In this document: positions 19,745 to 45,906 of the stretch, in pieces | Layout: every line of letters starts with the position of its first letter | Numbering within the stretch: the first letter of the stretch is position 1 | Source of the DNA: a virus | Lineage: Duplodnaviria; Heunggongvirae; Uroviricota; Caudoviricetes | Virus record (IMG/VR): IMGVR_UViG_3300032046_000009 | Strand: one strand, 5' to 3' | DNA: 64,000 nucleotides | The notes under the pieces: generated by a model | What the model was told of the DNA's origin: nothing | Databases searched by the model: none | What the model saw: the letters and a program-made list of their open reading frames with translations, nothing else | Translations under genes and position numbers: made by a program

Positions 19745-20035
19745 GAAGGCTAGGTCACACTTTCGGTGTAACTTTCCGTCCCCTCGAAAATTAAATTTTT
19801 AGTAGAATCCTGAGTGTCACATAACGCACATAGGCGTTTTTTCTTCCCAATTAGATTTCGGTTTATGGTGAAGCCCTCTGCCAGCCCCCAACGTATTCCC
19901 CAGACTTTTAATCAACTGATTAAAAAAGCACCGACTTCAGGCTTCAGTTCCCATTGGCTTCGCCCTAGCATCCAGAACGTCTTTTTCCCTAGTCTATTTA
20001 CCTGTCAAATGTAGCTAGGGGTAGGGGACTAATCG
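19745..20035. repeat. composite intergenic module copy 2
   Basis: GTCACATAACGCACATAGGCGTTTTTT ... TTAATCAACTGATTAA (19908-19923) ... AACGTCTTTTTCCC..GCTAGGGGTAGGGGACTA. Confidence 0.6.
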
Positions 20036-20154
20036 AACCGAACTTTCTCTTTTTGTTTATACAATAGTTTTAGACATTCGGGACAAAAAAGTGCACGACT
20101 TCCAGCGAAGGGTTTGCAGAACCAAAGTTTTCCACATCTAAAACATTCTATCAT
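20029..20154 (-). CDS. VxFT-tail family (about 41 aa, KEKVRFD, TAG stop), terminal member of array 4
   Basis: hand-translated MIECFRCGKLWFCKPF... Confidence 0.4.
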   Translation of the reverse strand: MIECFRCGKLWFCKPFAGSRALFCPECLKLLYKQKEKVRFD

Positions 20155-20165
20155 TTTCTCTTCTG

Positions 20166-20396
20166 TCAATCGAAACTCACCTTTTCTGGAATCCGAAACA
20201 TAAGTTCAGAAATTCTAATATCGACTTTTCTCTTCTTTATCAGACAAACCATTTGCATTGGAAAATTTCTCTCTTTTTTATGTAGTTCCGCAGACCTAGT
20301 TAATCGGTTGCTCAATGCTTGTAAAGTATGAATTTCACTTTTCAATTCGACAAGTGGTTTCTTTTTCCATTGTGCAAGCGGAGATTTATGGGTCAT
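20166..20396 (-). CDS. VxFT-tail family variant (PEKVSFD)
   Basis: track ORF. Confidence 0.5.
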   Translation of the reverse strand: MTHKSPLAQWKKKPLVELKSEIHTLQALSNRLTRSAELHKKERNFPMQMVCLIKKRKVDIRISELMFRIPEKVSFD

Positions 20397-20608
20397 GTGA
20401 ATGACACCGTTTCTTTAGCTTTACAGAATCGTGAACAAACTTCTTTCAAATCTTTTGGGTATTCCCCAACTTCGGATTTCTCAAACTTTCGCGCACAATC
20501 GGAGCAATAACAACCCCCGTATTGCACTTTGCCATGACTAAGACCTAATCTAGCGCACCCATTATTGCACACGAAATGTTTTCCGCATTTTCCACAAATT
20601 TTGTTCAT
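20393..20608 (-). CDS. VxFT-tail family (KETVSFT), CxxCGKxFxC subfamily
   Basis: track ORF. Confidence 0.6.
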   Translation of the reverse strand: MNKICGKCGKHFVCNNGCARLGLSHGKVQYGGCYCSDCARKFEKSEVGEYPKDLKEVCSRFCKAKETVSFT

Positions 20609-20883
20609 GTGAATCGAACAACCTCTCTCATATTAAACCAGAGATTCCAGCAATATTCCCATCTTCCAAAATGTTTCCCATGAAAGATGCCCCATTCGTC
20701 ATAACATCCTCTACAAATCCAGATGTTATGTTTAAATCCGCTATTTACTAAAAAGATTAAAACCGCATCTATCGTTTTGGTATCTTCGTCTTTATGTTCA
20801 AAATTATTAGAATTGCTTACGTGGAACCATTTCTTTTTTGGAAGAGTTACAGTTATTGGTTTTCCACATTTCGAACATTTCAA
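20605..20883 (-). CDS. VxFT-tail family (REVVRFT)
   Basis: track ORF. Confidence 0.6.
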   Translation of the reverse strand: MKCSKCGKPITVTLPKKKWFHVSNSNNFEHKDEDTKTIDAVLIFLVNSGFKHNIWICRGCYDEWGIFHGKHFGRWEYCWNLWFNMREVVRFT

Positions 20884-21089
20884 GTGAACTCTACCTTCTC
20901 TTTGAGTTTGGCTAAATATTCTGGAATATGGTCTGAAATTATTATGTCATTCGGATATTTTTCATGACTCCACTTGACAAAAACCATCCAACATTTTATA
21001 CAAAGAAACGCCCATTTTCCGTTATTCTTTTCTCCGCACACGGGACAAAAATCTGGAAGTTCTTCTTTATCAACGAGTTTGTTTGTCAA
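20880..21089 (-). CDS. VxFT-tail family (KEKVEFT); TTG start at the TTGA junction
   Basis: track ORF 20880..21131 trimmed. Confidence 0.55.
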   Translation of the reverse strand: MTNKLVDKEELPDFCPVCGEKNNGKWAFLCIKCWMVFVKWSHEKYPNDIIISDHIPEYLAKLKEKVEFT

Positions 21090-21283
21090 GTGAATAACAC
21101 CTTCTCTTTTTCGGGTATTCCCCCATAGCACAATTCAAGTGACCCTATATCTTCAGTAAATTTTGTTCCCCATTTTTTGATTGAACATTCTTTACAATAG
21201 CATAATGTAGCGTCTGGGGAACATTCTTCGTCACAATTACAGAAGAACTTTTTTCCGCAAACTTGGCACGTCATTTCTTTCAA
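21086..21283 (-). CDS. VxFT-tail family (KEKVLFT), CxxCGKxFxC subfamily
   Basis: track ORF. Confidence 0.6.
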   Translation of the reverse strand: MKEMTCQVCGKKFFCNCDEECSPDATLCYCKECSIKKWGTKFTEDIGSLELCYGGIPEKEKVLFT

Positions 21284-21423
21284 GTGAATTGAACCTCTTC
21301 TTTTTGTTTTCTCACTTCACAAATCGAACGTTGTCTGCAACTCTTTTGACAAAAATCGTCATAATGATTTATCTCCCCGACATCGCAGTAAATTATTTTT
21401 CCAGCGCAGTATATTTCCGTCAT
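21280..21423 (-). CDS. VxFT-tail family (46 aa, EEVQFT)
   Basis: hand-translated MTEIYCAGKIIYCDVGE... Confidence 0.45.
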   Translation of the reverse strand: MTEIYCAGKIIYCDVGEINHYDDFCQKSCRQRSICEVRKQKEEVQFT

Positions 21424-21629
21424 GTGAATTGCACCACTTCTTTTAAGTCAACCTCTTCGCAACCTTCTGGACGACCCGACCCATGATTGCATTTTTCACA
21501 CCAACAAACGCTATATTCGTGAGGACATTTTCCCGTTATTGAAGATTTAGTCCATCCTCTCCCTTTACAAGTGAAAGTTCTACCACAATTACCGCACTTC
21601 TTTGTTAGAGCTAATGGATATTTCTTCAT
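21420..21629 (-). CDS. VxFT-tail family (KEVVQFT)
   Basis: track ORF. Confidence 0.6.
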   Translation of the reverse strand: MKKYPLALTKKCGNCGRTFTCKGRGWTKSSITGKCPHEYSVCWCEKCNHGSGRPEGCEEVDLKEVVQFT

Positions 21630-21841
21630 GTAAATTGCACTACCTCTTTATCTACCCTTTTAATAAACTTGTCCCAGAGAAAGGTTGCTTTTGCTTCGGA
21701 TTCTGGAATGTCGGCATCGTTTTTGTGAAGTTCGTAAAAATTATACCATTTTTCTCTGCATTTTTGACAAAGAATATCGTTATTCGTTTGAAAAGATTCA
21801 CCGCATTTTTCACAAATACGATTATAGGATTTTTGTGTCAT
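21626..21841 (-). CDS. VxFT-tail family (KEVVQFT)
   Basis: track ORF. Confidence 0.6.
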   Translation of the reverse strand: MTQKSYNRICEKCGESFQTNNDILCQKCREKWYNFYELHKNDADIPESEAKATFLWDKFIKRVDKEVVQFT

Positions 21842-21939
21842 GTGAATTGCACTCTCACGGGTTCTTTCTCAATTTCAAAACGGTCATACCATTTTTTGAG
21901 ACTTCTATATTTTGTAAAAATATGTTGTAGATGGTTCAT
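21838..21939 (-). CDS. VxFT-tail family mini member (33 aa, PVRVQFT)
   Basis: track ORF 21838..22041 trimmed to the ATGA junction. Confidence 0.45.
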   Translation of the reverse strand: MNHLQHIFTKYRSLKKWYDRFEIEKEPVRVQFT

Positions 21940-22151
21940 GTAAATTGTACAACCTCTTGATAACGATATTTGTTTCGCTCCATTCGTTCTTCGCAAGAAC
22001 GACCATTTTCCCTTACTGTTTTTGCGTGGCATAATCCACATTCACAACCATTACTATGTTTGCTCTTTTCAAGTTTTCCACAATCATTATCACAGTAAAA
22101 AATTCGTCCACACGTTCTACAAGTTCTTTTGAAAAGTTCGGGGACTATCAT
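21936..22151 (-). CDS. VxFT-tail family (QEVVQFT)
   Basis: track ORF. Confidence 0.6.
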   Translation of the reverse strand: MIVPELFKRTCRTCGRIFYCDNDCGKLEKSKHSNGCECGLCHAKTVRENGRSCEERMERNKYRYQEVVQFT

Positions 22152-22528
22152 GTAAACTCAACCTTTTCTTTTGAATGTAAACGTACAAGTTCGCTATATC
22201 CCTCATTTATTTCTAGTGTCATATCTAAAATTTCTGAATATGCCAAGTCGGTTGTGACAGTCCCGTAACAAGTTCCACTAGCAATTACCTTATCGCCCTT
22301 CCAAATCTCATAGTCAAATTGGTAGCTATCATTTTCTTTATCTATCTCTTTGAAAGCTCCAATAGGAAAAATCAGTTCAAACCCCTTATCCCATAATTTC
22401 TCCCGTTTCAAAATGATAAGGATATTTTTCTCTATCGTGTCATCTGAATATTCTTCCATAATATCTGTTAGTTCGGTTTCAAACTCAGGTTCTTTGCGTA
22501 AAGTCCAATTCGAAAAAGTGCCACTCAA
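22148..22528 (-). CDS. VxFT-tail family, larger non-Cys member (126 aa, KEKVEFT), TTG start
   Basis: track ORF. Confidence 0.55.
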   Translation of the reverse strand: MSGTFSNWTLRKEPEFETELTDIMEEYSDDTIEKNILIILKREKLWDKGFELIFPIGAFKEIDKENDSYQFDYEIWKGDKVIASGTCYGTVTTDLAYSEILDMTLEINEGYSELVRLHSKEKVEFT

Positions 22529-22670
22529 GTAAACTCAACTCGCTCTCTGTTATCTGGAATAAAGCAAGTCCAACTTGTGCAATACCACAATCCTCTTTTT
22601 GAATCCCATACTCTTCCCTCACAATCCAACTCACACTTTTTGCAATAATCAGGTTGTTCGTTTCGATTCA
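22525..22670 (-). CDS. VxFT-tail family (RERVEFT); start at the ATGA junction
   Basis: track ORF 22525..22731 trimmed. Confidence 0.5.
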
Positions 22671-22895
22671 TGTAAATTCTACCTGTTCTTTGTCTATAAT
22701 TCCTATGAACTTGTGATACTCTTCTTTCCAAACTTTATTTTGAAGTTGGAAACCTTCTAATATCTGAATCTTTTTCTCATAAATTTTTATCCAAACTGTT
22801 CTGCACCCCATACAAATAATTCTCATAGTTTCTTTAGATTCTCCTATCTTAACTTCTCGTCCCTGAATTTCTTTGTGACATTTAGCGCACTTCAA
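22668..22895 (-). CDS. VxFT-tail family (KEQVEFT); TTG start
   Basis: track ORF 22668..22934 trimmed. Confidence 0.55.
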   Translation of the reverse strand: MKCAKCHKEIQGREVKIGESKETMRIICMGCRTVWIKIYEKKIQILEGFQLQNKVWKEEYHKFIGIIDKEQVEFT

Positions 22896-23050
22896 GTGAA
22901 CAATACCTTCTCTCTGATTTTGATTTCTCTGCACAAAATTTTGTAAGGATAATTTTCTCTGTCAGCACCACATGAATGACTTTTACAAGTTTTATAGCAG
23001 AAGTTAGCACAACCGTTGCAATGACACTTTTCACAATCGGGGTTATTCAT
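22892..23050 (-). CDS. VxFT-tail family (48 aa, REKVLFT)
   Basis: hand-translated MNNPDCEKCHCNGCANFC... Confidence 0.45.
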   Translation of the reverse strand: MNNPDCEKCHCNGCANFCYKTCKSHSCGADRENYPYKILCREIKIREKVLFT

Positions 23051-23313
23051 GTAAATTGCACTCGTTCTTTTTTAGGTTTGTCTATACTCTTATCCCAGAA
23101 GTTAGGAAGTTCGCCTAGAAAAACAGCCCAACTTGCGTGATGTCCATTTATGCCCTGAGTATATTTTCTTTCAATATCCCTTCCATATTTGTGATGAAAT
23201 TTGTGCCACATCGCAAGACAATCTTTGCACAAAGAAACGTCTATCATATCATCGTCCCGATTATATTCAGGAACCCATGCACCACATTTTAGACAATCCG
23301 TTTTCAACATCAT
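23047..23313 (-). CDS. VxFT-tail family (KERVQFT)
   Basis: track ORF. Confidence 0.6.
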   Translation of the reverse strand: MMLKTDCLKCGAWVPEYNRDDDMIDVSLCKDCLAMWHKFHHKYGRDIERKYTQGINGHHASWAVFLGELPNFWDKSIDKPKKERVQFT

Positions 23314-23585
23314 GTGAAGTCCACTTTCTCAGGTTTCATTGTTACCTGTAATTCAAAATCATCGTATGCAAGAAGGTCTTTGCCAACACGAACAAGATAT
23401 TGAACGTGTGTAGAATTTACGTCTTTAATGTCTGTTATAGAGCCTATTTTGTCAATGAACCCTATCTTGCCTTTGTTTTCCCCCCTCAATATTTTTACGT
23501 CATCGTCTAGTTTAAGTTTTGTTCGTTGCTTAACAAGTTTGTCTATCTGAGCGCGAAACGCTTTACTTCCTTCCATTGCAGACAC
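23310..23585 (-). CDS. VxFT-tail family, non-Cys first member of array 4 (PEKVDFT)
   Basis: track ORF; promoter box 23608-23645. Confidence 0.55.
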   Translation of the reverse strand: MSAMEGSKAFRAQIDKLVKQRTKLKLDDDVKILRGENKGKIGFIDKIGSITDIKDVNSTHVQYLVRVGKDLLAYDDFELQVTMKPEKVDFT

Positions 23586-24033: not shown

Positions 24034-24034
24034 T

Positions 24035-24605: not shown

Positions 24606-24893
24606 TCAAGTGAACTGAACTACTTCTTTTATAGCGTTCCTTATATCGCCTAGTGAAGTAATTTTAATATCCAAAATCATCTCATCTGCCATCTGTTGAA
24701 AGTGTTCTATCTCGCTTTCGTGTATCTCTTCAAATGAACATTTAGATATATGTTCTCCGTCATCGTAGTCATCTTCAAAAAACATAGAGCAAAGAGCACA
24801 TTCCTCTGAACCCCCACTTATACCCCCTCTAAATTTTACTGCAAGAGGGTCATTAGAATACGCAAGCCATCTTAAACTAACTTTACGTGTCAT
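24606..24893 (-). CDS. VxFT-tail family (KEVVQFT); stop embedded in the next promoter box
   Basis: track ORF. Confidence 0.6.
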   Translation of the reverse strand: MTRKVSLRWLAYSNDPLAVKFRGGISGGSEECALCSMFFEDDYDDGEHISKCSFEEIHESEIEHFQQMADEMILDIKITSLGDIRNAIKEVVQFT

Positions 24894-25105
24894 GTGAACT
24901 CAACCCTCTCTTTTCTTTTTTCTTTCAAAATTAGCTTTTTGAAACATTCGGGACAAAGCCACCAAAACTTGTGAGCAAATTTTACTCTTCCCCCATTGCC
25001 TATTTCTCTAATACTACTTGCGAACTTCTCACAATTATAACAAGTAAGTTTCTCTCTATAATCTGGGGGGTCATAATCTTCTTCTAGCGGAATTTTTTCG
25101 GTCAA
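24890..25105 (-). CDS. VxFT-tail family (KERVEFT); probable TTG start at the junction
   Basis: track ORF 24890..25114. Confidence 0.55.
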   Translation of the reverse strand: MTEKIPLEEDYDPPDYREKLTCYNCEKFASSIREIGNGGRVKFAHKFWWLCPECFKKLILKEKRKERVEFT

Positions 25106-25266
25106 GTGAAACACACAACTTCCTTTTTAGGCTTTTTGCCACTAACATCGCACACAGAATACATGTCACACTTTTGGCATCTGTCTTGTAAATAGTTTGT
25201 GCATATCAAAACTTTCAGAGTAGTTACGCCCGTTTTTATGTTAGCTTGCAGTTGCATTCTTCTCAA
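25102..25266 (-). CDS. VxFT-tail family (about 53 aa, KEVVCFT)
   Basis: hand-translated. Confidence 0.4.
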   Translation of the reverse strand: MRRMQLQANIKTGVTTLKVLICTNYLQDRCQKCDMYSVCDVSGKKPKKEVVCFT

Positions 25267-25391
25267 GTGAAGGACACCTTTTCTTTATTCTCCAAGATGT
25301 AAATTAATGCCTGAGCAATTATTTGCTGATTCTGTTGGACATTTCCTGTTGGAACAGATTTTAGATTTTTGATTATCTGTTCTCGATTCAA
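25263..25391 (-). CDS. VxFT-tail family, non-Cys helical member (42 aa, KEKVSFT)
   Basis: hand-translated. Confidence 0.4.
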   Translation of the reverse strand: MNREQIIKNLKSVPTGNVQQNQQIIAQALIYILENKEKVSFT

Positions 25392-25537
25392 GTGAATTGC
25401 ACTTCCTCTTGTTCTTCTAAATATGGAATCCCATGAACTATTTTTTGAACCAGATAACGATAACCGTTTTTGTGAAAGACATCTCCAACTTTCAACTCTT
25501 CTCTGTTGGCTTGTCCTCTGGGTATTATTTTGTTCAA
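25388..25537 (-). CDS. VxFT-tail family, non-Cys member (50 aa, EEVQFT)
   Basis: hand-translated. Confidence 0.4.
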   Translation of the reverse strand: MNKIIPRGQANREELKVGDVFHKNGYRYLVQKIVHGIPYLEEQEEVQFT

Positions 25538-25707
25538 GTGAACATCACTATTTCCCTTTCATTTGGTTGCTTGACTTTAAGACATTCTACAAGTCTTTCT
25601 TTCTTTTTCACCCAACAATCAGGACATAAACATTGGTTCATCTTTCTATTTTTCGCATCACATGATTGCTTGCAATTAAACTCTTTTTTACAATTTTTAC
25701 ACTTCAA
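25534..25707 (-). CDS. VxFT-tail family (56 aa, EIVMFT), CxxCxxxFxC subfamily
   Basis: hand-translated MKCKNCKKEFNCKQSCD... Confidence 0.45.
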   Translation of the reverse strand: MKCKNCKKEFNCKQSCDAKNRKMNQCLCPDCWVKKKERLVECLKVKQPNEREIVMFT

Positions 25708-25931
25708 GTAAACTTCACCCTTTCCTTTACTTTCTCTTTATCCCATTTTGCGAAAAGGTCTATTCCTTGTTTCCAAGTTATACAACTGCTTCCTGTCGTC
25801 TTAATGGATTTTTCGCTGTGTTTTCCTATATTCTCATATCTCGTTCCATATTGTTCTCCTTTCGTATCACAATATCCTTTTTTTCGGTTGTTAAACAAAC
25901 AGTTGAAACAGCCCTGTGTTGGTAAACTCAA
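25704..25931 (-). CDS. VxFT-tail family (ERVKFT)
   Basis: track ORF. Confidence 0.6.
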   Translation of the reverse strand: MSLPTQGCFNCLFNNRKKGYCDTKGEQYGTRYENIGKHSEKSIKTTGSSCITWKQGIDLFAKWDKEKVKERVKFT

Positions 25932-26251
25932 CTGAATTGCACCTTAACCTTTGGTTCTTTACCGTCTTTAGTGAATGGTTTATTAGGGTCAATTATGTTT
26001 ATCGTAAATTGTTCTGAACTATTGTGGTATTCCCAATAAAAACAACCGTCAGCTAAATCTTTGAGAATATAGTCTATACAATCATCGTTACAAACTACGT
26101 CCTCAAAATCTGTGCCATTATATTCTTTCTTAACTTTCTCTTTCACTTGTTCAAGAGTCAAATCTAGCAAACCGCGTTTTCTCAGTTGTTCGACTAACTC
26201 TTCCGCGTCCCCAACTTGAAAATCATCTAAGATTTTTAATCCGACAATCAT
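25928..26251 (-). CDS. VxFT-tail family variant (KVKVQFS; S=AGT with a TTGA junction)
   Basis: track ORF. Confidence 0.55.
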   Translation of the reverse strand: MIVGLKILDDFQVGDAEELVEQLRKRGLLDLTLEQVKEKVKKEYNGTDFEDVVCNDDCIDYILKDLADGCFYWEYHNSSEQFTINIIDPNKPFTKDGKEPKVKVQFS

Positions 26252-26469
26252 GTGAATTTCACCATTTCTGGTTCTACGTCCTCAACTTTTCTGTAACCGC
26301 ATTTTTTAATTCCTTTCGCGGTATCTAAGCGTTGTTTTCTCGTACATTCTTCACAATAACATTCATGTATCTTTTTGTGAAATTGTGAAACTCGAATGCC
26401 GACAGAACACATATCATTACCATTACAGTAAAATTCTTTTTTGCAATTCGCACATCTGACCTTAATCAT
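26248..26469 (-). CDS. VxFT-tail family (EMVKFT), CxxCxxxFxC subfamily, first member of array 5
   Basis: track ORF. Confidence 0.6.
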   Translation of the reverse strand: MIKVRCANCKKEFYCNGNDMCSVGIRVSQFHKKIHECYCEECTRKQRLDTAKGIKKCGYRKVEDVEPEMVKFT

Positions 26470-37350: not shown

Positions 37351-37364
37351 AGTGATTCTTTTGC

Positions 37365-38121: not shown

Positions 38122-38393
38122 GTGAATTGCACCTTCACAAAATCGTCCGCGAACTCTTTGGCTAATTCGTTTGCTTCACCTATTCCCTTTGAAAATATTA
38201 TAGACGCGCCCCATCTTTTCTTTTCAATTTTGATATTTGGGTCTTTCTCTTTAAGAAATTTCAACCACTTCCAAAAACAACCACAATCAGCACCAATATA
38301 AAATACAGGATTTAGTTTAAGAATGTTGGTTGTCCCCGTTTCCCTAAACATCGTGGCTTTTCCGTTTTCCTTTCCGCATTTAGCACAAATCAT
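38118..38393 (-). CDS. VxFT-tail family (DFVKVQFT); ATG start at the junction
   Basis: track ORF 38118..38438 trimmed. Confidence 0.55.
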   Translation of the reverse strand: MICAKCGKENGKATMFRETGTTNILKLNPVFYIGADCGCFWKWLKFLKEKDPNIKIEKKRWGASIIFSKGIGEANELAKEFADDFVKVQFT

Positions 38394-38578
38394 GTGAACA
38401 GCACCTTTTCTTTGACAAACTCGTAATTTTGGCAACAACAGCCAGCACGATAAGGTATATTATTTCTACCTTTCTGAATTTCTTTTGGGTCTATTCCTTT
38501 TTCACTATCTATGGAACCACGACAATTTTTGTATTTCTTACAGTTGAAGCAACCACGATTAATTGATAAACCACTCAA
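38390..38578 (-). CDS. VxFT-tail family (KEKVLFT), CFNC...GCCC subfamily; TTG start
   Basis: track ORF 38390..38611 trimmed; paralog of 15047..15292. Confidence 0.55.
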   Translation of the reverse strand: MSGLSINRGCFNCKKYKNCRGSIDSEKGIDPKEIQKGRNNIPYRAGCCCQNYEFVKEKVLFT

Positions 38579-38763
38579 GTAAAGTTCACCTTTTCCTTTA
38601 CCTCTATGCAAGTATGTCTAGGTTGTGGTTCTCCACTATTACTAACTGCTGTCCAGAGGCAATGTTCACAGCAGAAGTTTTGTTCACCAATATCGTGAGC
38701 GTCCCCGTATTGTTCATAAGACCGTCCGCAAACGTCACACTTAACAATTTGCCAAGTCGTCAA
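38575..38763 (-). CDS. VxFT-tail family (KEKVNFT)
   Basis: track ORF. Confidence 0.6.
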   Translation of the reverse strand: MTTWQIVKCDVCGRSYEQYGDAHDIGEQNFCCEHCLWTAVSNSGEPQPRHTCIEVKEKVNFT

Positions 38764-38996
38764 GTGAACACAACCTTCTCTCTAGTATAGTCTGCAATTT
38801 TCCCCTTAAATACTTCCCAAGTTGGGTTTATTTTCTTAGGATATTTAGCAACAAAAAATGTATTATGGTCAGCAAAAAACTCTAGCCATTTTCTTAGACA
38901 AGAACCACAAAGAATAGCGTCTATAGAATGAGGATATTTTAGTTTATCTTCTGTCACCGTGAAAACTCGTCCACATTTCTCACAGTTTCTTTTAGT
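38760..38996 (-). CDS. VxFT-tail family (REKVVFT); TTG start overlapping the upstream TTTGACTAA
   Basis: track ORF 38760..39047 trimmed. Confidence 0.5.
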   Translation of the reverse strand, partial: TKRNCEKCGRVFTVTEDKLKYPHSIDAILCGSCLRKWLEFFADHNTFFVAKYPKKINPTWEVFKGKIADYTREKVVFT

Positions 38997-39225
38997 CAAA
39001 GCTAACAACTTCTGGACGTTCCTCTTCTGCAAGAACTTCCTTTGCACTTCCTTCCATGTTTCCTAAAATATAAGTGAATCCTTTTTCTTTACCTTCCGTA
39101 CAAAGTTCATACCATCTTGCAAGTCGTCTGAGATGTTCTTCACTTTTAAAATGAGTATCAACGCCTCTCTTTGTTGCAAAGTTTTTCTTGCACAAACCAC
39201 AACGCGCGTAGAATTTCTTAGGCAT
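38992..39225 (-). CDS. VxFT-tail family variant (PEVVSFD, TAA stop) with C2H2-like zinc finger (CGLC-x12-H-x5-H)
   Basis: track ORF. Confidence 0.55.
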   Translation of the reverse strand: MPKKFYARCGLCKKNFATKRGVDTHFKSEEHLRRLARWYELCTEGKEKGFTYILGNMEGSAKEVLAEEERPEVVSFD

Positions 39226-41277: not shown

Positions 41278-41552
41278 ATTTCCCTTAATATTTCGTGGTA
41301 GTACAATCCAAGACTCTCTAAGTATTTGTCATATTGTTTAGGTCTTGTTTTTGTCATATTTGTAATTATCCAATGAAGAAACTCGTGATTAAGAACGCAA
41401 CACATATCTTCTACATTAAGCCACTTTTCTTGGTCAGTAATCTCCACTTTAGCCGAACCTTTTTTAACCCAAATTTTTGCTCGTCTATGATTTTTAGGCG
41501 TACTTTTTCGCACCTTAATAATGAGGTTTTCAAGATTTATTTCTTCGGTCAA
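41268..41552 (-). CDS. minimal HExxH (HEFLH) zincin-like protein, TTG start translationally coupled to the last array-7 member
   Basis: track ORF 41268..41576 trimmed; VLNHEFLHWI motif. Confidence 0.5.
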   Translation of the reverse strand: MTEEINLENLIIKVRKSTPKNHRRAKIWVKKGSAKVEITDQEKWLNVEDMCCVLNHEFLHWIITNMTKTRPKQYDKYLESLGLYYHEILREIWQ

Positions 41553-41788
41553 GTGAATTGTACCTTCTCTATCCATTCAGCCAAAAACTTGGCGTAAATT
41601 TTTTCCCATAATTCAGACCATTTAGGAGTTCTCGCTACATCATGAAGTTTGGAAAGAAATGGTTGTATAAAATTACCCCATTCTGTACTACATTCTCTGC
41701 AAAGAAAATGTTCAAATTTGCCTAAAACCAATTCAGATTCTTTTCCACAACGGTCACATTTTCTACCTTTAAGCCAATTAGCTCTCAT
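41549..41788 (-). CDS. VxFT-tail family (IEKVQFT)
   Basis: track ORF. Confidence 0.6.
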   Translation of the reverse strand: MRANWLKGRKCDRCGKESELVLGKFEHFLCRECSTEWGNFIQPFLSKLHDVARTPKWSELWEKIYAKFLAEWIEKVQFT

Positions 41789-41964
41789 GTGAATTGCACT
41801 ACCTCTCTCGGTATTATCACTTTTAAATCCCCACGTTTTATTTCCCTTTCAATTGGAATTTTGATACTTTTACCACCATGAGTGCAAAAAATTTCTCCAT
41901 GTTTGTTAGTCCGTAATATGCATCCTTTGGTAAGTGTGCAACAAGTACATTTATATTCAGTCAA
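41785..41964 (-). CDS. VxFT-tail family (56 aa, REVVQFT)
   Basis: hand-translated (L)TEYKCTCCTLTKGC... Confidence 0.45.
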   Translation of the reverse strand: MTEYKCTCCTLTKGCILRTNKHGEIFCTHGGKSIKIPIEREIKRGDLKVIIPREVVQFT

Positions 41965-42251
41965 GTAAACTGCACCTTTATTCTCTTTAATTCTTTCGGC
42001 ACATCTTTAGGCGTTCCCCACATATCCCTTTCATCATAAAATCTCCATTTGTCATTAAGAAGATGTTCCCATTTATTATCATAGAAAATCTTTGGAGTCC
42101 CATCTTCATTTTTGAATGCCTCGCTAATAATATTGTGCCCGCACTCACAAGCATAGAAACTCGCGCCTAAATCTCCAAACCAACCTATGCCATTTCGTTT
42201 TCCAGTAAATATCAGTTCACTTTTACAGAACGGACAAATCCAAACAGTCAT
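41961..42251 (-). CDS. VxFT-tail family (RIKVQFT)
   Basis: track ORF. Confidence 0.6.
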   Translation of the reverse strand: MTVWICPFCKSELIFTGKRNGIGWFGDLGASFYACECGHNIISEAFKNEDGTPKIFYDNKWEHLLNDKWRFYDERDMWGTPKDVPKELKRIKVQFT

Positions 42252-42451
42252 GTGAACTGCACTACCTCTGGGTCCTCTGGTACTATAAAAACTTTGTTGC
42301 TATGCTCAAAATATGTCCCATCTGTTTTTCTATTCCAAATACACGTCAATGATTCTTTGTCGAAAAGATGTACTCTTCGAACAAACTGAGCATGACAATC
42401 TTTACATTCCATACATACTTCTTTCTTTTCTATATTTCGTGAATGGCACAT
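42248..42451 (-). CDS. VxFT-tail family (PEVVQFT); paralog of 44551..44823 but apparently N-terminally truncated
   Basis: track ORF; in-frame conserved KCPMC codons lie upstream of the ATG with no start codon. Confidence 0.5.
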   Translation of the reverse strand: MCHSRNIEKKEVCMECKDCHAQFVRRVHLFDKESLTCIWNRKTDGTYFEHSNKVFIVPEDPEVVQFT

Positions 42452-42495
42452 AGGGCATTTAGTGAAGTTGAATTTTAAACCAAAAGTATTGAGAG

Positions 42496-42726
42496 CTATG
42501 TGAATTCCACCTTCTCCTTTGCATCAATTCCAAAATCCATTCTACTTCTACAACGCTCTTTTCCAGAGACAATTTCTCTGCCACCCTTCTCTCTCTCAAA
42601 TTCTTGAATGCAAGCCCCACAATAGCAAGCAGTTTCTTGTTTAGCTTTAAGTTCTATTCCACATTCTCCGTGACACATAAAACTGCAATGGCAATAACAA
42701 CACTTTTTATGATACCATCGTTTCAT
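42496..42726 (-). CDS. VxFT-tail family (KEKVEFT, TAG stop)
   Basis: track ORF. Confidence 0.6.
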   Translation of the reverse strand: MKRWYHKKCCYCHCSFMCHGECGIELKAKQETACYCGACIQEFEREKGGREIVSGKERCRSRMDFGIDAKEKVEFT

Positions 42727-42971
42727 GTAAACTGCACCTTTACTGGTCTATTTATTCTCTTTGTTCTTACTTTTAGTCCTAAGTAATTTGAAAAATACAT
42801 ACCGAACTCATAAGCATGTTCTTCACAAAATTCATCGTGGCATATATGTGTTATTTTTGTAGCAAATTCACGAGTGCTCCCTTCGCTTCGCACCATTTTG
42901 TATGACAAAATAATCTCTGATTCTTTTCTACAATCAACCGCGAGACAACAGGTTAAAACACGACCATTCAA
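42723..42971 (-). CDS. VxFT-tail family (PVKVQFT); TTG start; paralog of 44306..44554
   Basis: track ORF 42723..43034 trimmed; shared AYEFxMYFSNYLGLKV block. Confidence 0.55.
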   Translation of the reverse strand: MNGRVLTCCLAVDCRKESEIILSYKMVRSEGSTREFATKITHICHDEFCEEHAYEFGMYFSNYLGLKVRTKRINRPVKVQFT

Positions 42972-43096
42972 GTAAACTGCACCTTTTCCCTTCTGTGTTT
43001 GTTCTGTCTCCAAATTGCAACAACAAGCATCCAATCTATTACTCTAGCTTTGTATTGAATTTCTGTATCCCAATTATCAAATAACTTTGACTTCAC
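42968..43096 (-). CDS. VxFT-tail family, non-Cys (about 42 aa, REKVQFT) with GTG start in an ACGTGA junction
   Basis: hand-translated. Confidence 0.4.
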   Translation of the reverse strand: MKSKLFDNWDTEIQYKARVIDWMLVVAIWRQNKHRREKVQFT

Positions 43097-43446
43097 GTAA
43101 ATTGCACCTTTTCTCTAGTGATTCCTTCTCTGGAAGCCCAACGTATATTAGATGCGATTCCATTTACACGACATTGAGTTTGTGATAAAAATTCAATCTC
43201 AGTTATTAGTATTTCCCCTGTAGTAGTTTCAATCATTGGTTTTGAATCCTTCATTGATGTACTTTCTATATGAAGCCTGAACATTTTGTTATTATCACAA
43301 TCTTTACATAATTTCTGTGCGTTATCTATTTTAAGTTCGATTTCCCAAATGTCGCCACCATTCACTTTTACTGTCATATCGACTGATGAAATCCCCTCAT
43401 ATTTCTTGTTACCCTGAACTAGATATGCCCGTAAAAATTTGCTCAT
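43093..43446 (-). CDS. VxFT-tail family (REKVQFT; T codon ACG)
   Basis: track ORF 43093..43488 trimmed to the ATGA junction. Confidence 0.55.
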   Translation of the reverse strand: MSKFLRAYLVQGNKKYEGISSVDMTVKVNGGDIWEIELKIDNAQKLCKDCDNNKMFRLHIESTSMKDSKPMIETTTGEILITEIEFLSQTQCRVNGIASNIRWASREGITREKVQFT

Positions 43447-43658
43447 GTAAACTTCACCTTTACAGGTCTCTTTAATTCTTCTCTCCATTCAGTAGCAATT
43501 CTTTTCCATTTTGAAAGACGTAAAGTTTTATTACGGTCTTTGATATATATTCTTACTCTTTTTATCATTTTGCGTTTTTGTCTTTTTGCCTCTAATACCA
43601 TTGCAATAATTAGACCACAAATTGTACTTATCATTCCAATAATTAGTAGTTCAGTCAT
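43443..43658 (-). CDS. VxFT-tail family member with TM helix (PVKVKFT)
   Basis: track ORF. Confidence 0.55.
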   Translation of the reverse strand: MTELLIIGMISTICGLIIAMVLEAKRQKRKMIKRVRIYIKDRNKTLRLSKWKRIATEWREELKRPVKVKFT

Positions 43659-43882
43659 GTAAATTGCACTACCTCTCGTTCTAATTCTGGATGACTTTCT
43701 GGTTTAGCTATTATCTGTCCGCAATTGTGACATTGAACAACTTTGTTATAAGAATTCCATTTTATTGCTCCATTATATCCACAACCGAAACAAATATTAG
43801 AATGTATAGACCTATGTTCTCGCGTAGTCAAACGAACCAAACCACAATCTTTATCATAATGCAAAACTTTGAGTTGTTTCAT
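43655..43882 (-). CDS. VxFT-tail family (REVVQFT)
   Basis: track ORF. Confidence 0.6.
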   Translation of the reverse strand: MKQLKVLHYDKDCGLVRLTTREHRSIHSNICFGCGYNGAIKWNSYNKVVQCHNCGQIIAKPESHPELEREVVQFT

Positions 43883-44061
43883 GTGAATTGAACCTTCTCC
43901 CGTTCATTCATAATTGACACATAAACCGTACAATGTTCTCTTATTCTGCAAGATTTTATGCAATATTCTTTGTTAAGCGAATTATGTACTGTGCATCCCG
44001 AAATACTCCATTTAACGTTCAGTTTAGAAGGATGCGTTAAAAGAACTGGTTCAGCACTCAT
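43879..44061 (-). CDS. VxFT-tail family (REKVQFT)
   Basis: track ORF. Confidence 0.6.
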   Translation of the reverse strand: MSAEPVLLTHPSKLNVKWSISGCTVHNSLNKEYCIKSCRIREHCTVYVSIMNEREKVQFT

Positions 44062-44309
44062 GTAAACTGCACCACTTCTCGTTCTTCATATTTCCCACTC
44101 ATAAAGTTTTCCCAAGAATTAGTCCACGCACTTTGGAATTTAATAGAATCAACATTCTTTACTTCCTTATCATAAACTTTTCCCCACGCCGCACGACAAT
44201 TTGGGCAAAGATAAACAGTTTCCAAATTTTGTCCATTTTTATCAATTGGATGTACTCTTACTAACGCATCAGACATATTATTGCACTTGTCACATGGTCT
44301 CTTCATCAT
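44058..44309 (-). CDS. VxFT-tail family (REVVQFT)
   Basis: track ORF. Confidence 0.6.
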   Translation of the reverse strand: MMKRPCDKCNNMSDALVRVHPIDKNGQNLETVYLCPNCRAAWGKVYDKEVKNVDSIKFQSAWTNSWENFMSGKYEEREVVQFT

Positions 44310-44554
44310 GTAAATTGTACCCTCTCTTTAAGTCTCATCTCTTCGATTATTACTTTTAGCCCTAGATAATTCGAGAAATACATTGAGAATTCATATGCGT
44401 CATCTTCGCAAAACGGTTCAACATTAACTCTTCCTTGTATTTTATAGTAAAGTAAGAATTCTGCCTCTTTTGGGCATTGGTCACTCCGACCATGCATTGC
44501 TACACATCTAGTGTGTCCGTCTTTTCTTATATTAGCAATAGTTGACCCAATCAT
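44306..44554 (-). CDS. VxFT-tail family (KERVQFT)
   Basis: track ORF. Confidence 0.6.
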   Translation of the reverse strand: MIGSTIANIRKDGHTRCVAMHGRSDQCPKEAEFLLYYKIQGRVNVEPFCEDDAYEFSMYFSNYLGLKVIIEEMRLKERVQFT

Positions 44555-44823
44555 GTAAAATGCACAACCTCTGGGTCTTCTGGCGTTACAAAGACGCTAG
44601 TGCTTTCAGGCTCAATTTTAGTGCCATTTCCTCTACGATTCCAAATAACAATAGATTCTGTTGGGGAATTACTTGAACAACTTCTAACAAACATTGCCGT
44701 ACAATCTTCGCAACGAACCCACGGTACTTCCTTTTCAGTATGTTGGCTATGAAGATGAGGGGCTAAATTTCGTGAGCCGCACATAGGACATTTCTTGAAG
44801 TTCTTTTTAAGTATGATTGTCAT
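44551..44823 (-). CDS. VxFT-tail family (PEVVHFT); ATG start at 44823
   Basis: track ORF 44551..44952 trimmed; the 5 prime extension is the overlapping frame of the upstream member. Confidence 0.55.
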   Translation of the reverse strand: MTIILKKNFKKCPMCGSRNLAPHLHSQHTEKEVPWVRCEDCTAMFVRSCSSNSPTESIVIWNRRGNGTKIEPESTSVFVTPEDPEVVHFT

Positions 44824-44987
44824 GTGAACTGTACCTTCTTCTCTCCTTCTATATATTTTTTCCGTGCTATTTTTGCACAAGCAACAGAACAAAAGCCCTT
44901 TTGACTTGAAAGAGTGCCGTTGTATATGTATTCTTTGTGGCATATTGAGCAAGTTCTAGGACCATTACCATGTCTATGTCGTTTCAA
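44820..44987 (-). CDS. VxFT-tail family (55 aa, KKVQFT), TTG start
   Basis: hand-translated (L)KRHRHGNGPRTCSICHKEY... Confidence 0.45.
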   Translation of the reverse strand: MKRHRHGNGPRTCSICHKEYIYNGTLSSQKGFCSVACAKIARKKYIEGEKKVQFT

Positions 44988-45085
44988 GTGAATTGCACCT
45001 TCTCTTTCTGATATTCTTTAGCAAGTCGTTTAAACCAGCGAAGTCGTCTAAAGATGAGAGGATAGTCTATATCTTTTCTGTTCAT
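44984..45085 (-). CDS. VxFT-tail family mini member (33 aa, KEKVQFT), no Cys
   Basis: hand-translated. Confidence 0.4.
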   Translation of the reverse strand: MNRKDIDYPLIFRRLRWFKRLAKEYQKEKVQFT

Positions 45086-45318
45086 GTGAAATGCACTACT
45101 TCTCCTATTGTGATAATATTTTTTACTTCTTTACTAGACAAAGTTATTTCCTTCCATTCTGGATGTTCAATCACTCTAATGAAAAGAATTGGCTCATCAG
45201 TATTCACAAATGGTCTAACAACATAACGATAACCTTTAGCTGACACTCTGCCATGAAGCATTTTTCCTTCTCGCTCGAACATTACAATGTCGCCAGCCCT
45301 TATTTTGTCAAAGTTCAA
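45082..45318 (-). CDS. VxFT-tail family, non-Cys (GEVVHFT)
   Basis: track ORF. Confidence 0.55.
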   Translation of the reverse strand: MNFDKIRAGDIVMFEREGKMLHGRVSAKGYRYVVRPFVNTDEPILFIRVIEHPEWKEITLSSKEVKNIITIGEVVHFT

Positions 45319-45533
45319 GTAAATGTCACCTTTATAACTGGGTCTGTAAGTTCATAGATTTCTATAGGTTTCTGTTTTGTCTCAGGAAAATCATGCTGTA
45401 ATTTTTTGAAGTGTGTTCCACAAAGAAAGTTATGGTCCGCAAAAGGTTCAATGATTATTGGTCTAGGCTCGTTTTTCCAATTGATAACATATTCCGATTT
45501 CTTAGAACACCCTCTCCATTCACAATGAATCAT
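45315..45533 (-). CDS. VxFT-tail family (VIKVTFT)
   Basis: track ORF. Confidence 0.6.
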   Translation of the reverse strand: MIHCEWRGCSKKSEYVINWKNEPRPIIIEPFADHNFLCGTHFKKLQHDFPETKQKPIEIYELTDPVIKVTFT

Positions 45534-45667
45534 TCTCTCAGAAACCCCGCTCCTTTACATCTTCTACACATAACTCTAATCCATCTATCTCCTTTTGGGT
45601 CTGGATTTCTTTCTATCACGTAACCAATTCCTCTACAAACAAAACATTCTTTCGGTGGCTTCATCAT
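45530..45667 (-). CDS. small Cys-rich protein (about 45 aa) inside array 7 without the tail (ends FLRE)
   Basis: hand-translated MMKPPKECFVCRGIGY... Confidence 0.35.
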   Translation of the reverse strand: MMKPPKECFVCRGIGYVIERNPDPKGDRWIRVMCRRCKGAGFLRE

Positions 45668-45906
45668 GTGAACGTCACTTTCTCTTTGGCTTTAAACTTC
45701 TCTTCGGCTTCCCTTATGCCCTCTGCTTTTCCTTCCTGATAACCCTCATCATGTGCTGTACCGCATCCTTCGTCATAGCCAGCTTGCCATGCATCTGCTA
45801 ATGCCTCACCAATCTCGTCTTCCAACTTCTTTGTATCAATATCACCAGCAATTTGCTCTGCTCGTCTGTTGAGTTTTCCGAATGGGGTTTTACGATTGTC
45901 GCTCAT
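45664..45906 (-). CDS. VxFT-tail family, acidic non-Cys first member of array 7 (KEKVTFT)
   Basis: track ORF; promoter box 45940-45975. Confidence 0.55.
   Translation of the reverse strand: MSDNRKTPFGKLNRRAEQIAGDIDTKKLEDEIGEALADAWQAGYDEGCGTAHDEGYQEGKAEGIREAEEKFKAKEKVTFT

What the first reader, a model, noticed from the sequence alone, without database searches (positions are those of the whole stretch)
20029..45906. Stop/start overlap junctions in which the last-codon wobble base co-varies with the downstream start codon (ACA-TGA, ACT-TGA, ACG-TGA)
Within arrays every gene overlaps the next by 4 nt. The final Thr/Ser/Asp codon is ACA, ACT/AGT/GAT or ACG/TCG, which creates an overlapping ATG, TTG or GTG start for the next cistron respectively. 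Array-terminal members instead end in TAA or TAG with no overlap (9746, 16806, 20029, 42496). An AAGGTG / GAGAAGG Shine-Dalgarno-like element sits 8-10 nt upstream of each overlapping start, inside the tail codons (E-K-V). So the tail region doubles as the translation initiation region of the next gene. This is an unusually regular termination-reinitiation architecture across more than 70 junctions.
Basis: seen in the sequence. Interest (0 to 1): 0.8.

Follow-up and report, generated by a model that had tools for sequence, protein, structure and literature searches.

The report
Standard stop-start linker joining gene cassettes
About 80 tiny, mostly unrelated genes of an uncultured (probably archaeal) virus-like element all end in the same seven-codon tail, which carries the ribosome-binding site and overlapping start codon of the next gene and is also the point where genes are swapped between related genomes.

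Summary
The sequence feature is real. 82 minus-strand ORFs (42-133 aa) end in [K/R/P]-E-[K/V/R]-V-x-F-[T/S/D]-stop, consensus GAGAAGGTGCAATTCAC(A/T)TGA. The core pattern occurs 71 times against 0.33 expected. 75 tails stop at TGA, and about 68 are followed by an ORF starting at the overlapping NTG.

Real selection shows elsewhere:
- C at that base is 3/283 before TGA but 7/27 before TAA/TAG.
- Tail codons are forced towards AAGGTG (GTG 57% vs 10% in gene bodies; AAG 93% vs 24%).
- The SD core is present in 88% of internal tails but 52% of terminal ones.
- TTG junctions carry stronger SDs than ATG junctions.
- Promoter-proximal genes use ATG, while coupled genes use ATG and TTG about equally.

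About 30 related metagenomic contigs share the tail but have shuffled cassette order, with breakpoints inside the tail.

V, F and T/S/D are near-invariant, and the SD does not explain this. A peptide-level role remains open.

Verdict: a stereotyped translational-coupling linker that also serves as a recombination joint. It is a new variant of a known kind.

The parts
41549..45906 (-). Largest cassette array. It holds 19 tail-bearing small genes with stops at 45664, 45315, 45082, 44984, 44820, 44551, 44306, 44058, 43879, 43655, 43443, 43093, 42968, 42723, 42496 (TAG), 42248, 41961, 41785 and 41549. It is headed by the promoter at 45932-45971.
36640..39225 (-). Cassette array with 12 tails (38992 TAA; 38760, 38575, 38390, 38118, 37918, 37685, 37365, 37210, 37073, 36783, 36640). 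The last TGA runs into the next promoter (TGAGCATGG at 36642).
24606..26469 (-). Cassette array with 9 tails (26248 to 24606), seven of them with consecutive TTG-overlap starts. The terminal ACT-TGA is fused to promoter element TGAGTATGG at 24608.
20029..23585 (-). Cassette array with 17 tails (23310 to 20029). The last member ends in TAG with no overlap.
9746..13005 (-).
43879..43899 (-). Canonical junction GAG AAG GTT CAA TTC ACA TGA (E-K-V-Q-F-T-stop). The SD core AAGGT is at -14..-10 and the ATG of the next gene overlaps the stop (ATGA).
27800..28090 (-). Single tail-bearing gene between two promoters. Together with 30168-30437, 30593-30817 and 34176-34409 it is one of the isolated tail-bearing genes.
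44820..44983 (-). One 164-nt cassette (55-aa gene) that is present here and absent from the roughly 99%-identical contig L044. L044 carries a chimeric tail whose left half matches the upstream tail and whose right half matches the downstream tail.
44554..44823 (-). Tail-bearing cassette encoding a Lar restriction-alleviation domain (PF14354, residues 8-64 of 90). The tail sits on a 26-residue extension beyond the complete domain.
45932..45971 (-). Example of the conserved operon promoter TGAGYATGG-N2-TTTCT-N5-6-AAGGTTTATAWRGGACG. About 17-22 copies lie on the minus strand. A short SD-containing leader and an ATG follow each one.
48973..49537 (+). Small inverted mini-array on the plus strand with the same junctions (GTCGAGTTCACTTGA ending at 49155; GTGCAGTTCACTTGA ending at 49271, whose TTG starts ORF 49268-49537).
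55480..55948 (-). Three further tail-bearing cassettes (stops at 55802, 55656, 55480). Others lie at 14763-15292 (2), 16806-17033 (1) and 47412-47576 (1).

Best explanation
The window belongs to a large (at least 86-152 kb) uncultured mobile element or virus, probably of an archaeon. Its accessory genes are organised as operons of small 'cassettes'. Each cassette ends in a standard seven-codon linker, [K/R/P]-E-[K/V/R]-V-x-F-[T/S/D]-TGA.

The 5' half of the linker (GAG AAG GTG) is a Shine-Dalgarno element held in place by codon choice. The last codon's third base plus the TG of the TGA stop forms the ATG or TTG start of the next cassette, 8 nt downstream of GGTG. A ribosome finishing one cassette therefore terminates on top of a ready-made initiation site and translates the next one, which is translational coupling by termination-reinitiation.

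Because every cassette carries the same linker, any two cassettes joined by a crossover inside the linker stay in frame and immediately have a working junction. The linker is thus also the joint at which cassettes are gained, lost and reshuffled between related genomes.

Shown: the motif, the overlap, nucleotide-level selection for the SD and for a start-competent base, and the position of the breakpoints. Inferred: actual reinitiation, polycistronic transcription, and the archaeal host. Unexplained by this model: why V, F and T/S/D are near-invariant.
For: The motif is far above chance (71 vs 0.33), and downstream ORFs start at the overlapping NTG.

Codon bias in tails versus bodies of the same 311 genes points to AAGGTG: Val GTG 57% vs 10%, Lys AAG 93% vs 24%, Glu GAG 54% vs 25%.

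The last Thr codon before TGA is ACA 118, ACT 126, ACG 10, ACC 1, against body usage of 36/34/19/11% (chi-square p about 1e-17). C at -1 is 3/283 before TGA and 7/27 before TAA/TAG (p=1.7e-6).

The SD core GGT is present in 229/259 internal tails but only 22/42 tails with no overlapping downstream gene (p=2.6e-7).

TTG junctions carry AGGTG in 49% of cases against 19% for ATG junctions (p=2e-6). The direction is the same in the window alone, 12/28 vs 6/37 (p=0.025).

Promoter-proximal genes use ATG in at least 37/47 cases, against 121/259 coupled genes (p=5e-5).

The tail is attached to unrelated proteins: 51 of 81 are BLAST singletons once the tail is removed, and Pfam hits go to different families, including a complete Lar domain followed by a 26-aa extension.

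About 30 related contigs share the tails. Junction pairs sharing only the upstream gene (91) or only the downstream gene (113) outnumber those sharing both (60), and the identity profiles cross inside the tail. 64-77% of homology-block ends near a junction fall within -25..+5 of the stop, against 12.7% at random. A single-cassette indel has a chimeric tail.

A second, distant lineage has a different tail (E-K-W-R-Q-x-I-TGA) that places GGAG at the same distance from an overlapping start.

NTGA overlaps with an SD inside the upstream gene, and their coupling by termination-reinitiation, are established in archaea and bacteria (PMC6728339, PMC12548453).
Against: No expression data exist, so coupling, TTG initiation and operon transcripts are all inferred.

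V (244/247), F (212/216) and the T/S/D end are near-invariant, and 101 of 104 orthologues keep them at 40-80% body identity. Leader TIRs and 49 tail-less NTGA junctions in the same elements lack TTYAC. A random-library study in E. coli found no strong sequence requirement around coupled stop/start codons (PMC12548453). The 3' half therefore needs another explanation.

Terminal tails keep V-x-F-T even when the SD has decayed.

G at -1 (GTG) is also depleted, and the family-wide ban on CACGTG explains this only partly.

The pooled junctions are phylogenetically non-independent, and the tail set was collected with a pattern that fixes V, F and T/D/S.
Confidence: 0.7

Rival explanations
1. The tail is primarily a protein feature: a shared C-terminal peptide (an amphipathic strand ...V-x-F-T/S/D-COOH) that tags the small accessory proteins for a common partner. 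That partner could be a protease, an unfoldase, a packaging machine or the proteasome. The SD and overlapping start were fitted into it secondarily.
For: F and V are invariant while their third codon positions vary freely (TTT/TTC 171/140; GTN all four). The last residue is restricted to T, S (both codon families) and D. D needs two substitutions from ACN yet is commoner than any one-step neighbour (T 182, D 18, S 9, I 3, N 2, K 1, V 1), which is an amino-acid-property pattern. Tails with no downstream gene keep the peptide while losing the SD. 101/104 orthologues keep it. It sits on a linker beyond a complete Lar domain. In a second lineage 31/99 small proteins share [D/E]-K-W-x-Q at a variable distance from the stop. 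The element encodes LonB-like, HtrA-like, MoxR and KaiC-like proteins that could act on such tags.
Against: The peptide differs completely between the two lineages, while the SD position is shared. There is strong nucleotide-level bias inside the tail. No partner or binding domain was identified, and no PDZ was detected in the HtrA-like protease. The AlphaFold model is uninformative (pLDDT 58). The tail set is conditioned on the motif, so decayed terminal tails would be missed.
Confidence: 0.3
2. The linker is a dedicated recombination site recognised by a site-specific recombinase. The arrays would then be an integron-like or PeSL-like cassette system, and translation would be incidental.
For: Breakpoints concentrate in the tail, cassettes move between arrays, and a single-cassette indel has a chimeric tail.
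Against: No integrase or recombinase was detected among the larger window proteins. There is no inverted-repeat or hairpin signature: no covariation between -10 and -4, and junction MFE equals gene-body MFE. Invariant positions follow codon positions 1-2 rather than a contiguous core. In-register crossovers in a conserved in-frame linker are simply the only ones that leave both genes intact, so survivorship explains the pattern. This model does not explain the SD codon bias or the loss of the SD in terminal tails.
Confidence: 0.1
3. The genes are tandem paralogues of one ancestral small gene, and the tail is merely its most slowly diverging remnant.
For: Several small paralogue clusters exist (9, 6 and 3 members). 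34 of 81 proteins have at least two CxxC motifs.
Against: 51/81 are singletons without the tail. The Pfam domains are different (Lar, Zn_ribbon_4, DUF7569) and some members have no cysteines. Homologues of one Zn-ribbon family occur without the tail in other elements. The codon bias and the internal/terminal contrast show ongoing selection.
Confidence: 0.03
4. The junctions are recoding sites, either TGA read as sense or a programmed frameshift, that fuse cassettes into polyproteins cleaved at V-x-F-T.
For: Every junction shifts the frame by the same amount, and a protease is encoded nearby.
Against: Identical tails are followed by TAA or TAG at array ends. There is no slippery heptamer in TTYACWTGA. 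C is excluded at -1, which matters only for a start codon. Domain-bearing genes also end at TGA.
Confidence: 0.02

Closest known systems
Translational coupling at NTGA (-4) overlaps by termination-reinitiation, with an SD inside the upstream gene (Huber et al. 2019, PMC6728339; review PMC12548453)
   Same: It has the 4-nt stop/start overlap, an SD in the last codons of the upstream gene at normal spacing, and co-directional operon genes. NTGA is the commonest spacing in archaea and bacteria.
   Different: In known cases each gene pair has its own sequence. Here one 21-nt in-frame linker is reused about 80 times per genome on unrelated genes. It imposes a common C-terminal peptide, uses TTG as often as ATG, and marks recombination breakpoints. 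Coupling itself is untested here.
Start-associated sequences (SAS) of Cluster K mycobacteriophages (Pope et al. 2011, PMC3203893)
   Same: Both are a repeated, one-orientation, asymmetric motif containing an SD core a few nucleotides upstream of many start codons. Both are restricted to non-structural genes, are associated with different gene families, and have conserved positions that rRNA pairing does not explain.
   Different: SAS is a 13-bp GGGATAGGAGCCC present in 11-19 copies, mostly intergenic, and strongly ATG-associated (80/93). It is not a coding tail, not tied to a stop/start overlap, and not reported as a recombination joint.
PeSL regulatory cassettes of T4-type phages (Arbiol et al. 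2010, PMC2839356; PMC4122927)
   Same: Both are short conserved expression signals that flank small accessory genes in hyperplastic regions and serve as sites of modular shuffling between related genomes.
   Different: PeSLs are intergenic promoter plus stem-loop terminator units that act on transcription. Here the repeat is coding, acts on translation, and has no stem-loop.
Integron gene cassettes (attC)
   Same: Both form arrays of small, unrelated, promoter-less cassettes behind a common promoter, and cassettes are gained and lost at a repeated boundary.
   Different: No integrase and no structured attC were found. The boundary here lies in frame within coding sequence, and the cassettes are translationally linked.
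Synthetic bicistronic designs (standardised leader cistron with internal SD and overlapping stop/start; own knowledge, Mutalik et al. 2013)
   Same: Both use a fixed upstream coding context containing the SD and a stop/start overlap, which makes initiation independent of the neighbouring gene.
   Different: That system is engineered, with one leader per gene. This one is natural and chained through whole operons.

Membership tests
Termination-reinitiation (TeRe) coupled gene pairs | [quoted passage not shown] | tested here: met
   About 68 of 75 TGA tails in the window, and 259 pooled junctions, have an ORF starting at the overlapping NTG.
Termination-reinitiation (TeRe) coupled gene pairs | SD motif in the 3' end of the upstream gene at functional spacing | tested here: met
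   GGT(G) is at -13..-10, 8 nt from the start, in 88% of internal tails. It is maintained by codon bias (GTG 57% vs 10%; AAG 93% vs 24%) and relaxed in terminal tails.
Termination-reinitiation (TeRe) coupled gene pairs | Translation of the downstream gene depends on translation and termination of the upstream gene | not testable with these tools
   This needs reporter fusions with premature stops, or ribosome profiling.
Start-associated sequences (Cluster K phages) | 13-bp GGGATAGGAGCCC motif, mostly intergenic, 3-7 bp upstream of the start | tested here: not met
   The sequence here is different and fully coding (GAGAAGGTGCAATTCACWTGA) (PMC3203893).
Start-associated sequences (Cluster K phages) | Strong preference for ATG starts | tested here: not met
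   Coupled starts are ATG 121, TTG 127, GTG 11.
PeSL shuffling cassettes (T4-type phages) | Promoter plus stem-loop terminator forming the repeat | tested here: not met
   There is no pairing covariation and no extra folding energy at junctions. The promoters are separate elements at array heads.
PeSL shuffling cassettes (T4-type phages) | Insertions, deletions and replacements between relatives are bounded by the repeat | tested here: met
Integron cassette arrays | Integrase gene with attI, and cassettes ending in imperfect-palindrome attC sites | tested here: not met
   No integrase was found among the window proteins scanned. The tail has no conserved palindrome or hairpin. The rest of the element was not examined.
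C-terminal peptide tags (degrons, PDZ or proteasome-docking ligands) | Conserved extreme C-terminal residues recognised by a partner protein | tested here: inconclusive
   The conservation pattern fits, but no partner was identified, no PDZ was detected and the structural model has low confidence.

The most novel reading that the evidence does not exclude
The linker is bifunctional. Besides being the initiation site of the next gene, the encoded C-terminus ...V-x-F-(T/S/D)-COOH is a common tag. Through it, dozens of unrelated small effector proteins of the element (anti-restriction and host-takeover candidates) would be recognised by one machine, for example for timed degradation by the element's LonB/HtrA-like proteases, for packaging or for export. 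If so, the element would use one 21-nt module to standardise translation, protein fate and recombinational exchange of its accessory genes. The sister lineage uses an analogous but different tag ([D/E]-K-W-x-Q).
Probability: 0.3. Interest if true: 0.85.

Novelty: new variant of a known kind. Interest (0 to 1): 0.65.

Why it matters
If the model is right, this is a natural 'standard part'. A single in-frame linker lets an element chain, express and reshuffle about 80 unrelated small genes without re-evolving an initiation site for each new neighbour.

It offers an unusually clean natural data set (hundreds of near-identical junctions differing at single bases) for three open questions about reinitiation: which start codons are tolerated (TTG roughly equals ATG, GTG is much rarer, CTG is almost absent), how SD strength compensates, and whether the last residues of the nascent chain matter.

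It also provides a simple sequence signature, GARAAGGTNSARTTYACWTGA, for finding a so far undescribed family of large elements. These are absent from the IMG/VR and GenBank phage collections. The same signature delimits their accessory gene pool, which probably holds anti-defence genes.

Tried and rejected
- **RNA hairpin or structured element at the junction.** There is no covariation between the potentially pairing positions -10 and -4 (p=0.66), and no long-range mutual information. The 50-nt MFE at junctions is -5.7 vs -5.3 kcal/mol in gene bodies (p=0.28). Rfam gave 0 hits and there are no tRNAs.
- **Recoding or polyprotein.** Rejected, because the same tails precede TAA/TAG and there is no slippery site.
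It is a tautology. I replaced it with comparisons of the -1 base against stop type and against body codon usage.
- **Common descent only.** Rejected.
- **AlphaFold2 of a 9-member Zn-ribbon paralogue alignment.** pLDDT 58, with the tail unresolved, so uninformative.
- **Searches for relatives.** IMG/VR gave none with the junction pattern or with the 575-aa protein. The two first hits, L005 and L006, were chance matches. In GenBank phages the 575-aa protein has no match, and the RNA ligase gives only a 27%-identity hit to a Methanofastidiosa virus.
- **GTDB genomes.** The only true hit is a 1.9-kb contig binned in a Pacearchaeota MAG, which is a weak host lead.
- **Word-indexed homologue search of one cassette protein.** It returned only the protein itself.
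- **PDZ domain in the HtrA-like protease.** Not detected.
- **My first greedy gene caller.** It lost many small genes to spurious plus-strand ORFs and was replaced by junction-centred analyses.
- **TAGTCCCCTACC after two arrays.** Not above chance.

Full report
**What is there**

Nearly all genes of the window are on the minus strand. Reading ORF ends on that strand shows that 82 ORFs of 42-133 aa (median 73) finish with the same seven codons, [K/R/P]-E-[K/V/R]-V-x-F-[T/S/D]-stop. The nucleotide consensus is GAG AAG GTG CAA TTC AC(A/T) TGA. The core GTNNNNTTYACWTGA occurs 71 times against 0.33 expected from dinucleotide shuffles. 69 of these are on the minus strand. The other two belong to a small inverted array at 48973-49537.

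75 tails stop at TGA and 7 at TAA/TAG. The rest are at 9746-13005, 14763-17033, 47412 and 55480-55948.

For about 68 of the 75 TGA tails, an ORF of at least 33 codons begins exactly at the NTG formed by the last sense base plus the TG of TGA. Usually there is no earlier in-frame start. In many TTG cases a CxxC zinc knuckle sits at residues 3-6, so translation has to begin at the junction.

The 'co-variation' between the wobble base of the last codon and the type of start codon is not an association. It is the same nucleotide counted twice, so the proposed Fisher test cannot fail. The meaningful questions are whether that base is constrained to make a start, and whether the SD-like bases are constrained as nucleotides. 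To gain power I collected relatives.

A scan of metagenome contigs with GARAAGGTDCARTTYACWTGA returned 48 loci. About 30 of them, from lake sediment and peat, carry 0.4-4.6 tails per kb on one strand. Some have no detectable nucleotide similarity to the window. Pooling gave 310 unique tails.

**Evidence that the tail is an initiation region**

1. *Start-competent base.* Before TGA the last base is T 144, A 124, G 12, C 3. Before TAA/TAG, where there is no overlap, it is T 12, A 8, C 7, G 0. C is therefore depleted specifically where a start is needed (3/283 vs 7/27, p=1.7e-6). For Thr codons alone the counts are ACA 118, ACT 126, ACG 10, ACC 1, against 36/34/19/11% in the bodies of the same genes (p about 1e-17).

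2. *SD held by codon choice.* In the tail, Val is GTG in 57% of cases (10% in bodies), Lys is AAG in 93% (24%) and Glu is GAG in 54% (25%). Residue -5 is chemically diverse (K, V, R, Q, T, E) but nearly always supplies a G before GT. GGTG at -13..-10 leaves 8 nt to the start.

3. *Relaxation when not needed.* GGT is present in 229/259 tails that have an overlapping downstream gene, but in 22/42 that do not (p=2.6e-7). Several of those 22 are in fact TAATG (-1) overlaps.

4. *Compensation.* TTG junctions carry AGGTG in 49% of cases, ATG junctions in 19% (p=2e-6). The direction is the same in the window alone (12/28 vs 6/37, p=0.025) and in the relatives alone. This is a genuine co-variation of start type with SD strength.

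5. *De novo versus coupled starts.* The first gene after each promoter uses ATG in at least 37/47 cases, and most exceptions are GTG/TTG triplets inside the leader SD. Coupled genes use ATG 121, TTG 127 and GTG 11 (p=5e-5).

These results fit established knowledge. NTGA overlaps with an SD inside the upstream gene are widespread, and they were shown experimentally to couple translation by termination-reinitiation in Haloferax and E. coli (PMC6728339; review PMC12548453). Coupling itself is not demonstrated here.

**Arrays are operons**

Each array is preceded by a highly conserved element, TGAGYATGG-N2-TTTCT-N5-6-AAGGTTTATAWRGGACG. About 33-38 nt further on come a GGTGA/AAGGT leader and an ATG. 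There are 17-22 copies on the minus strand and 2-3 on the plus strand. The TTTATAWA box with a purine-rich upstream flank looks like an archaeal BRE/TATA promoter (inference from general knowledge).

Four 'terminal' tails (24606, 27800, 30168, 36640) end ACT-TGA because the TGA is the first triplet of this element. A fifth terminal TGA tail (34176) is instead followed by a gene at +1 spacing.

**The tail is an add-on to unrelated proteins**

After removing the last eight residues, 51 of the 81 window proteins have no BLAST relative among the others. The rest form small clusters of 9, 6, 3 and 2 members. Pfam hits are sparse and go to different families. Gene 44554-44823 has a complete Lar restriction-alleviation domain (residues 8-64, profile 2-57 of 58, 31.8 bits against a cut-off of 28.6), followed by a 26-residue extension that ends in the tail.

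A profile of the largest Zn-ribbon paralogue family found 65 proteins among 1.84 billion cluster representatives. 42 have the canonical tail, a few have near variants (FQ, FN), and about 15 have none. The larger genes with recognisable functions (KaiC-like, Band-7, MoxR, RNA ligase, glycosyltransferases, HtrA-like protease) lack the tail.

**The tail is where cassettes are exchanged**

Against relatives of 70-99% identity, the window breaks into gene-sized homology blocks whose order differs, and cassettes from one array turn up in another. Window 37209-37373 lies inside the L054 counterpart of the 20-24 kb array. Window 21280-21402 lies inside the L014 counterpart of the 37-38 kb array.

Among 283 junctions, 60 pairs from different contigs share both flanking genes, 91 share only the upstream gene and 113 share only the downstream gene. 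Position-wise identity of the 'upstream-only' pairs falls to background between about -13 and -7. That of the 'downstream-only' pairs rises from there on.

Of homology-block ends lying within 150 nt of a junction, 64% (left ends) and 77% (right ends) fall within -25..+5 of the stop, against 12.7% expected. L044 is about 99% identical to the window but lacks exactly the 164-nt cassette 44820-44983. It has a chimeric tail (CAGAAAGAAAAGGTGCA | GTTCACATGACAATC) whose two halves match the two window tails.

An in-register crossover in the linker leaves both genes intact and regenerates a working junction. Survivorship alone can therefore explain the pattern, and no dedicated recombinase is needed or was seen.

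**What the initiation model does not explain**

Anchoring on the SD part alone, residue -2 is F in 212/216 tails and the last residue is T 182, D 18, S 9, I 3, N 2, V 1, K 1. Anchoring on TTYACWTGA, residue -4 is V in 244/247. Third positions vary freely (TTT 171/TTC 140; all four GTN) and the polymorphic sites are unlinked.

In an unbiased search, 101 of 104 orthologues with 40-80% body identity keep V-x-F-[T/D/S]. Leader initiation regions and 49 tail-less NTGA junctions of the same elements have purine-rich SDs but no TTYAC. Work in E. coli found no strong sequence requirement around coupled stop/start codons (PMC12548453).

The T/S/D set includes both serine codon families and a two-step Asp, which looks like selection on an amino-acid property. 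Tails with no downstream gene keep the peptide while losing the SD. One caveat applies here: fully decayed tails would escape my pattern.

A peptide-level function is therefore a serious, non-exclusive rival. Against it stands the comparison with a distant second lineage (contigs L070, L071 and L073; GC 27-35%; 136-kb contig Ga0115863_1000039). This lineage shares the RNA ligase and the same Zn-ribbon family but has a different recurrent C-terminus, [D/E]-K-W-x-Q.., in 31 of 99 genes. Its modal form, GAG AAA TGG AGR CAA nnn ATT TGA, again places an SD (GGAG) 9-10 nt before an overlapping ATG/TTG. Across the two lineages the SD position is conserved while the peptide is not. Within that lineage, however, the motif also occurs at variable distances from the stop, which keeps the peptide question open.

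**G at the last base**

GTG starts are rarer than ACG usage predicts. Part of the reason is that TTC-ACG-TGA would create CACGTG, a hexamer that never occurs in about 250 kb of family sequence (0 vs 20-59 expected). G at -1 is seen 11 times after TTT and once after TTC. With TTT it is still under-represented (11/169 vs 16%, p=3e-4).

**Nature of the element**

Identical copies occur in several metagenomes on contigs of 86 kb, and a cassette protein cluster is recorded on a contig of 152 kb. Upstream of the window lie a LonB-like protease, sugar-modifying enzymes and a ParB-N protein.

No tRNA, rRNA or Rfam family was found in the 64 kb. There are no relatives in IMG/VR or GenBank phages apart from a weak RNA-ligase match to a Methanofastidiosa virus. 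The only GTDB hit is a 1.9-kb contig binned with a Pacearchaeota MAG.

My inference is a large virus or plasmid-like element of an archaeon. The host and the life style remain unknown.

**Comparison with known systems and verdict**

Mechanistically the junctions look like ordinary NTGA termination-reinitiation pairs. The closest described repeated initiation motif is the SAS of Cluster K mycobacteriophages (PMC3203893). The closest described 'expression signal that doubles as shuffling joint' is the PeSL of T4-type phages (PMC2839356). None of these is a coding, in-frame, stop/start-overlapping linker reused on about 80 unrelated genes per genome. Seven literature searches in total turned up no description of one (the directly relevant ones are).

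I therefore classify it as a new variant of a known kind. The translational-linker reading has confidence of about 0.7. The open question is why the encoded V-x-F-T end is so strictly kept.

Noticed in passing
whole window and all related loci (about 250 kb): Palindromic restriction-type sites are avoided to an extreme degree. GATC, CCGG and GGCC are completely absent (0 vs about 1700, 600 and 600 expected on both strands). About 30 six-base palindromes are absent or nearly so, including CACGTG, CCATGG, CTGCAG, GATATC, GTATAC, AGATCT, TGATCA and GTCGAC; AAGCTT is 2 vs 168. The second lineage (L070, L071, L073) lacks CCGG, GGCC and CACGTG but keeps GATC.
   Followed up: partly
window minus strand at 60863, 58747, 56689, 55306, 50886, 45971, 40260, 36642, 35890, 32692, 30170, 27802, 24608, 16734, 8152, 6674; plus strand at 5167, 19554: There is a conserved extended promoter, TGAGYATGG-N2-TTTCT-N5-6-AAGGTTTATAWRGGACG, followed by a short SD leader and an ATG. 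It heads each operon. It is archaeal BRE/TATA-like with an extra upstream element that suggests a dedicated transcription factor.
   Followed up: partly
window, 25 sites, e.g. 1680, 2354, 6088, 9268, 9333, 12354, 14286, 14358, 16742, 19408, 19474, 19909, 28250, 36218, 36269, 40327, 40660, 56712: A 14-bp palindrome TAATCA-NN-TGATTA occurs 25 times against 0.4 expected. Most copies are in intergenic regions next to the promoters or operon ends. It looks like an operator for a dimeric DNA-binding protein.
   Followed up: no
window 44554-44823 (-): This cassette encodes a Lar restriction-alleviation domain (PF14354). Together with the site avoidance, it suggests the arrays hold anti-defence or host-takeover genes.
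   Followed up: partly
L070 (Ga0115863_1000039, 136 kb), L071, L073: A distantly related lineage of elements (RNA ligase, ThiF, RNase H, N6/N4 methyltransferase) has 31 of 99 small proteins sharing a different C-terminal motif, [D/E]-K-W-x-Q. It is often E-K-W-R-Q-x-I-TGA with an overlapping start.
   Followed up: partly
L022 position about 1185-1250: A promoter-proximal gene has the tail-derived sequence AAGGTGCAATTCAC directly upstream of its ATG, in the leader, without an upstream ORF. This suggests the linker can travel with the downstream gene as its initiation region.
   Followed up: no
window 61814-62686 (-) and L062 1-1210: The element encodes an HtrA-family serine protease domain without a detectable PDZ. 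Just outside the window it also encodes a 760-aa LonB-like protease. MoxR (15780-16667), KaiC-like (32812-33756) and SPFH/Band-7 (29203-30099) proteins are also present.
   Followed up: partly
window 48973-49537 (+): A small inverted array on the plus strand carries two canonical junctions. It lies within an otherwise minus-strand genome.
   Followed up: no
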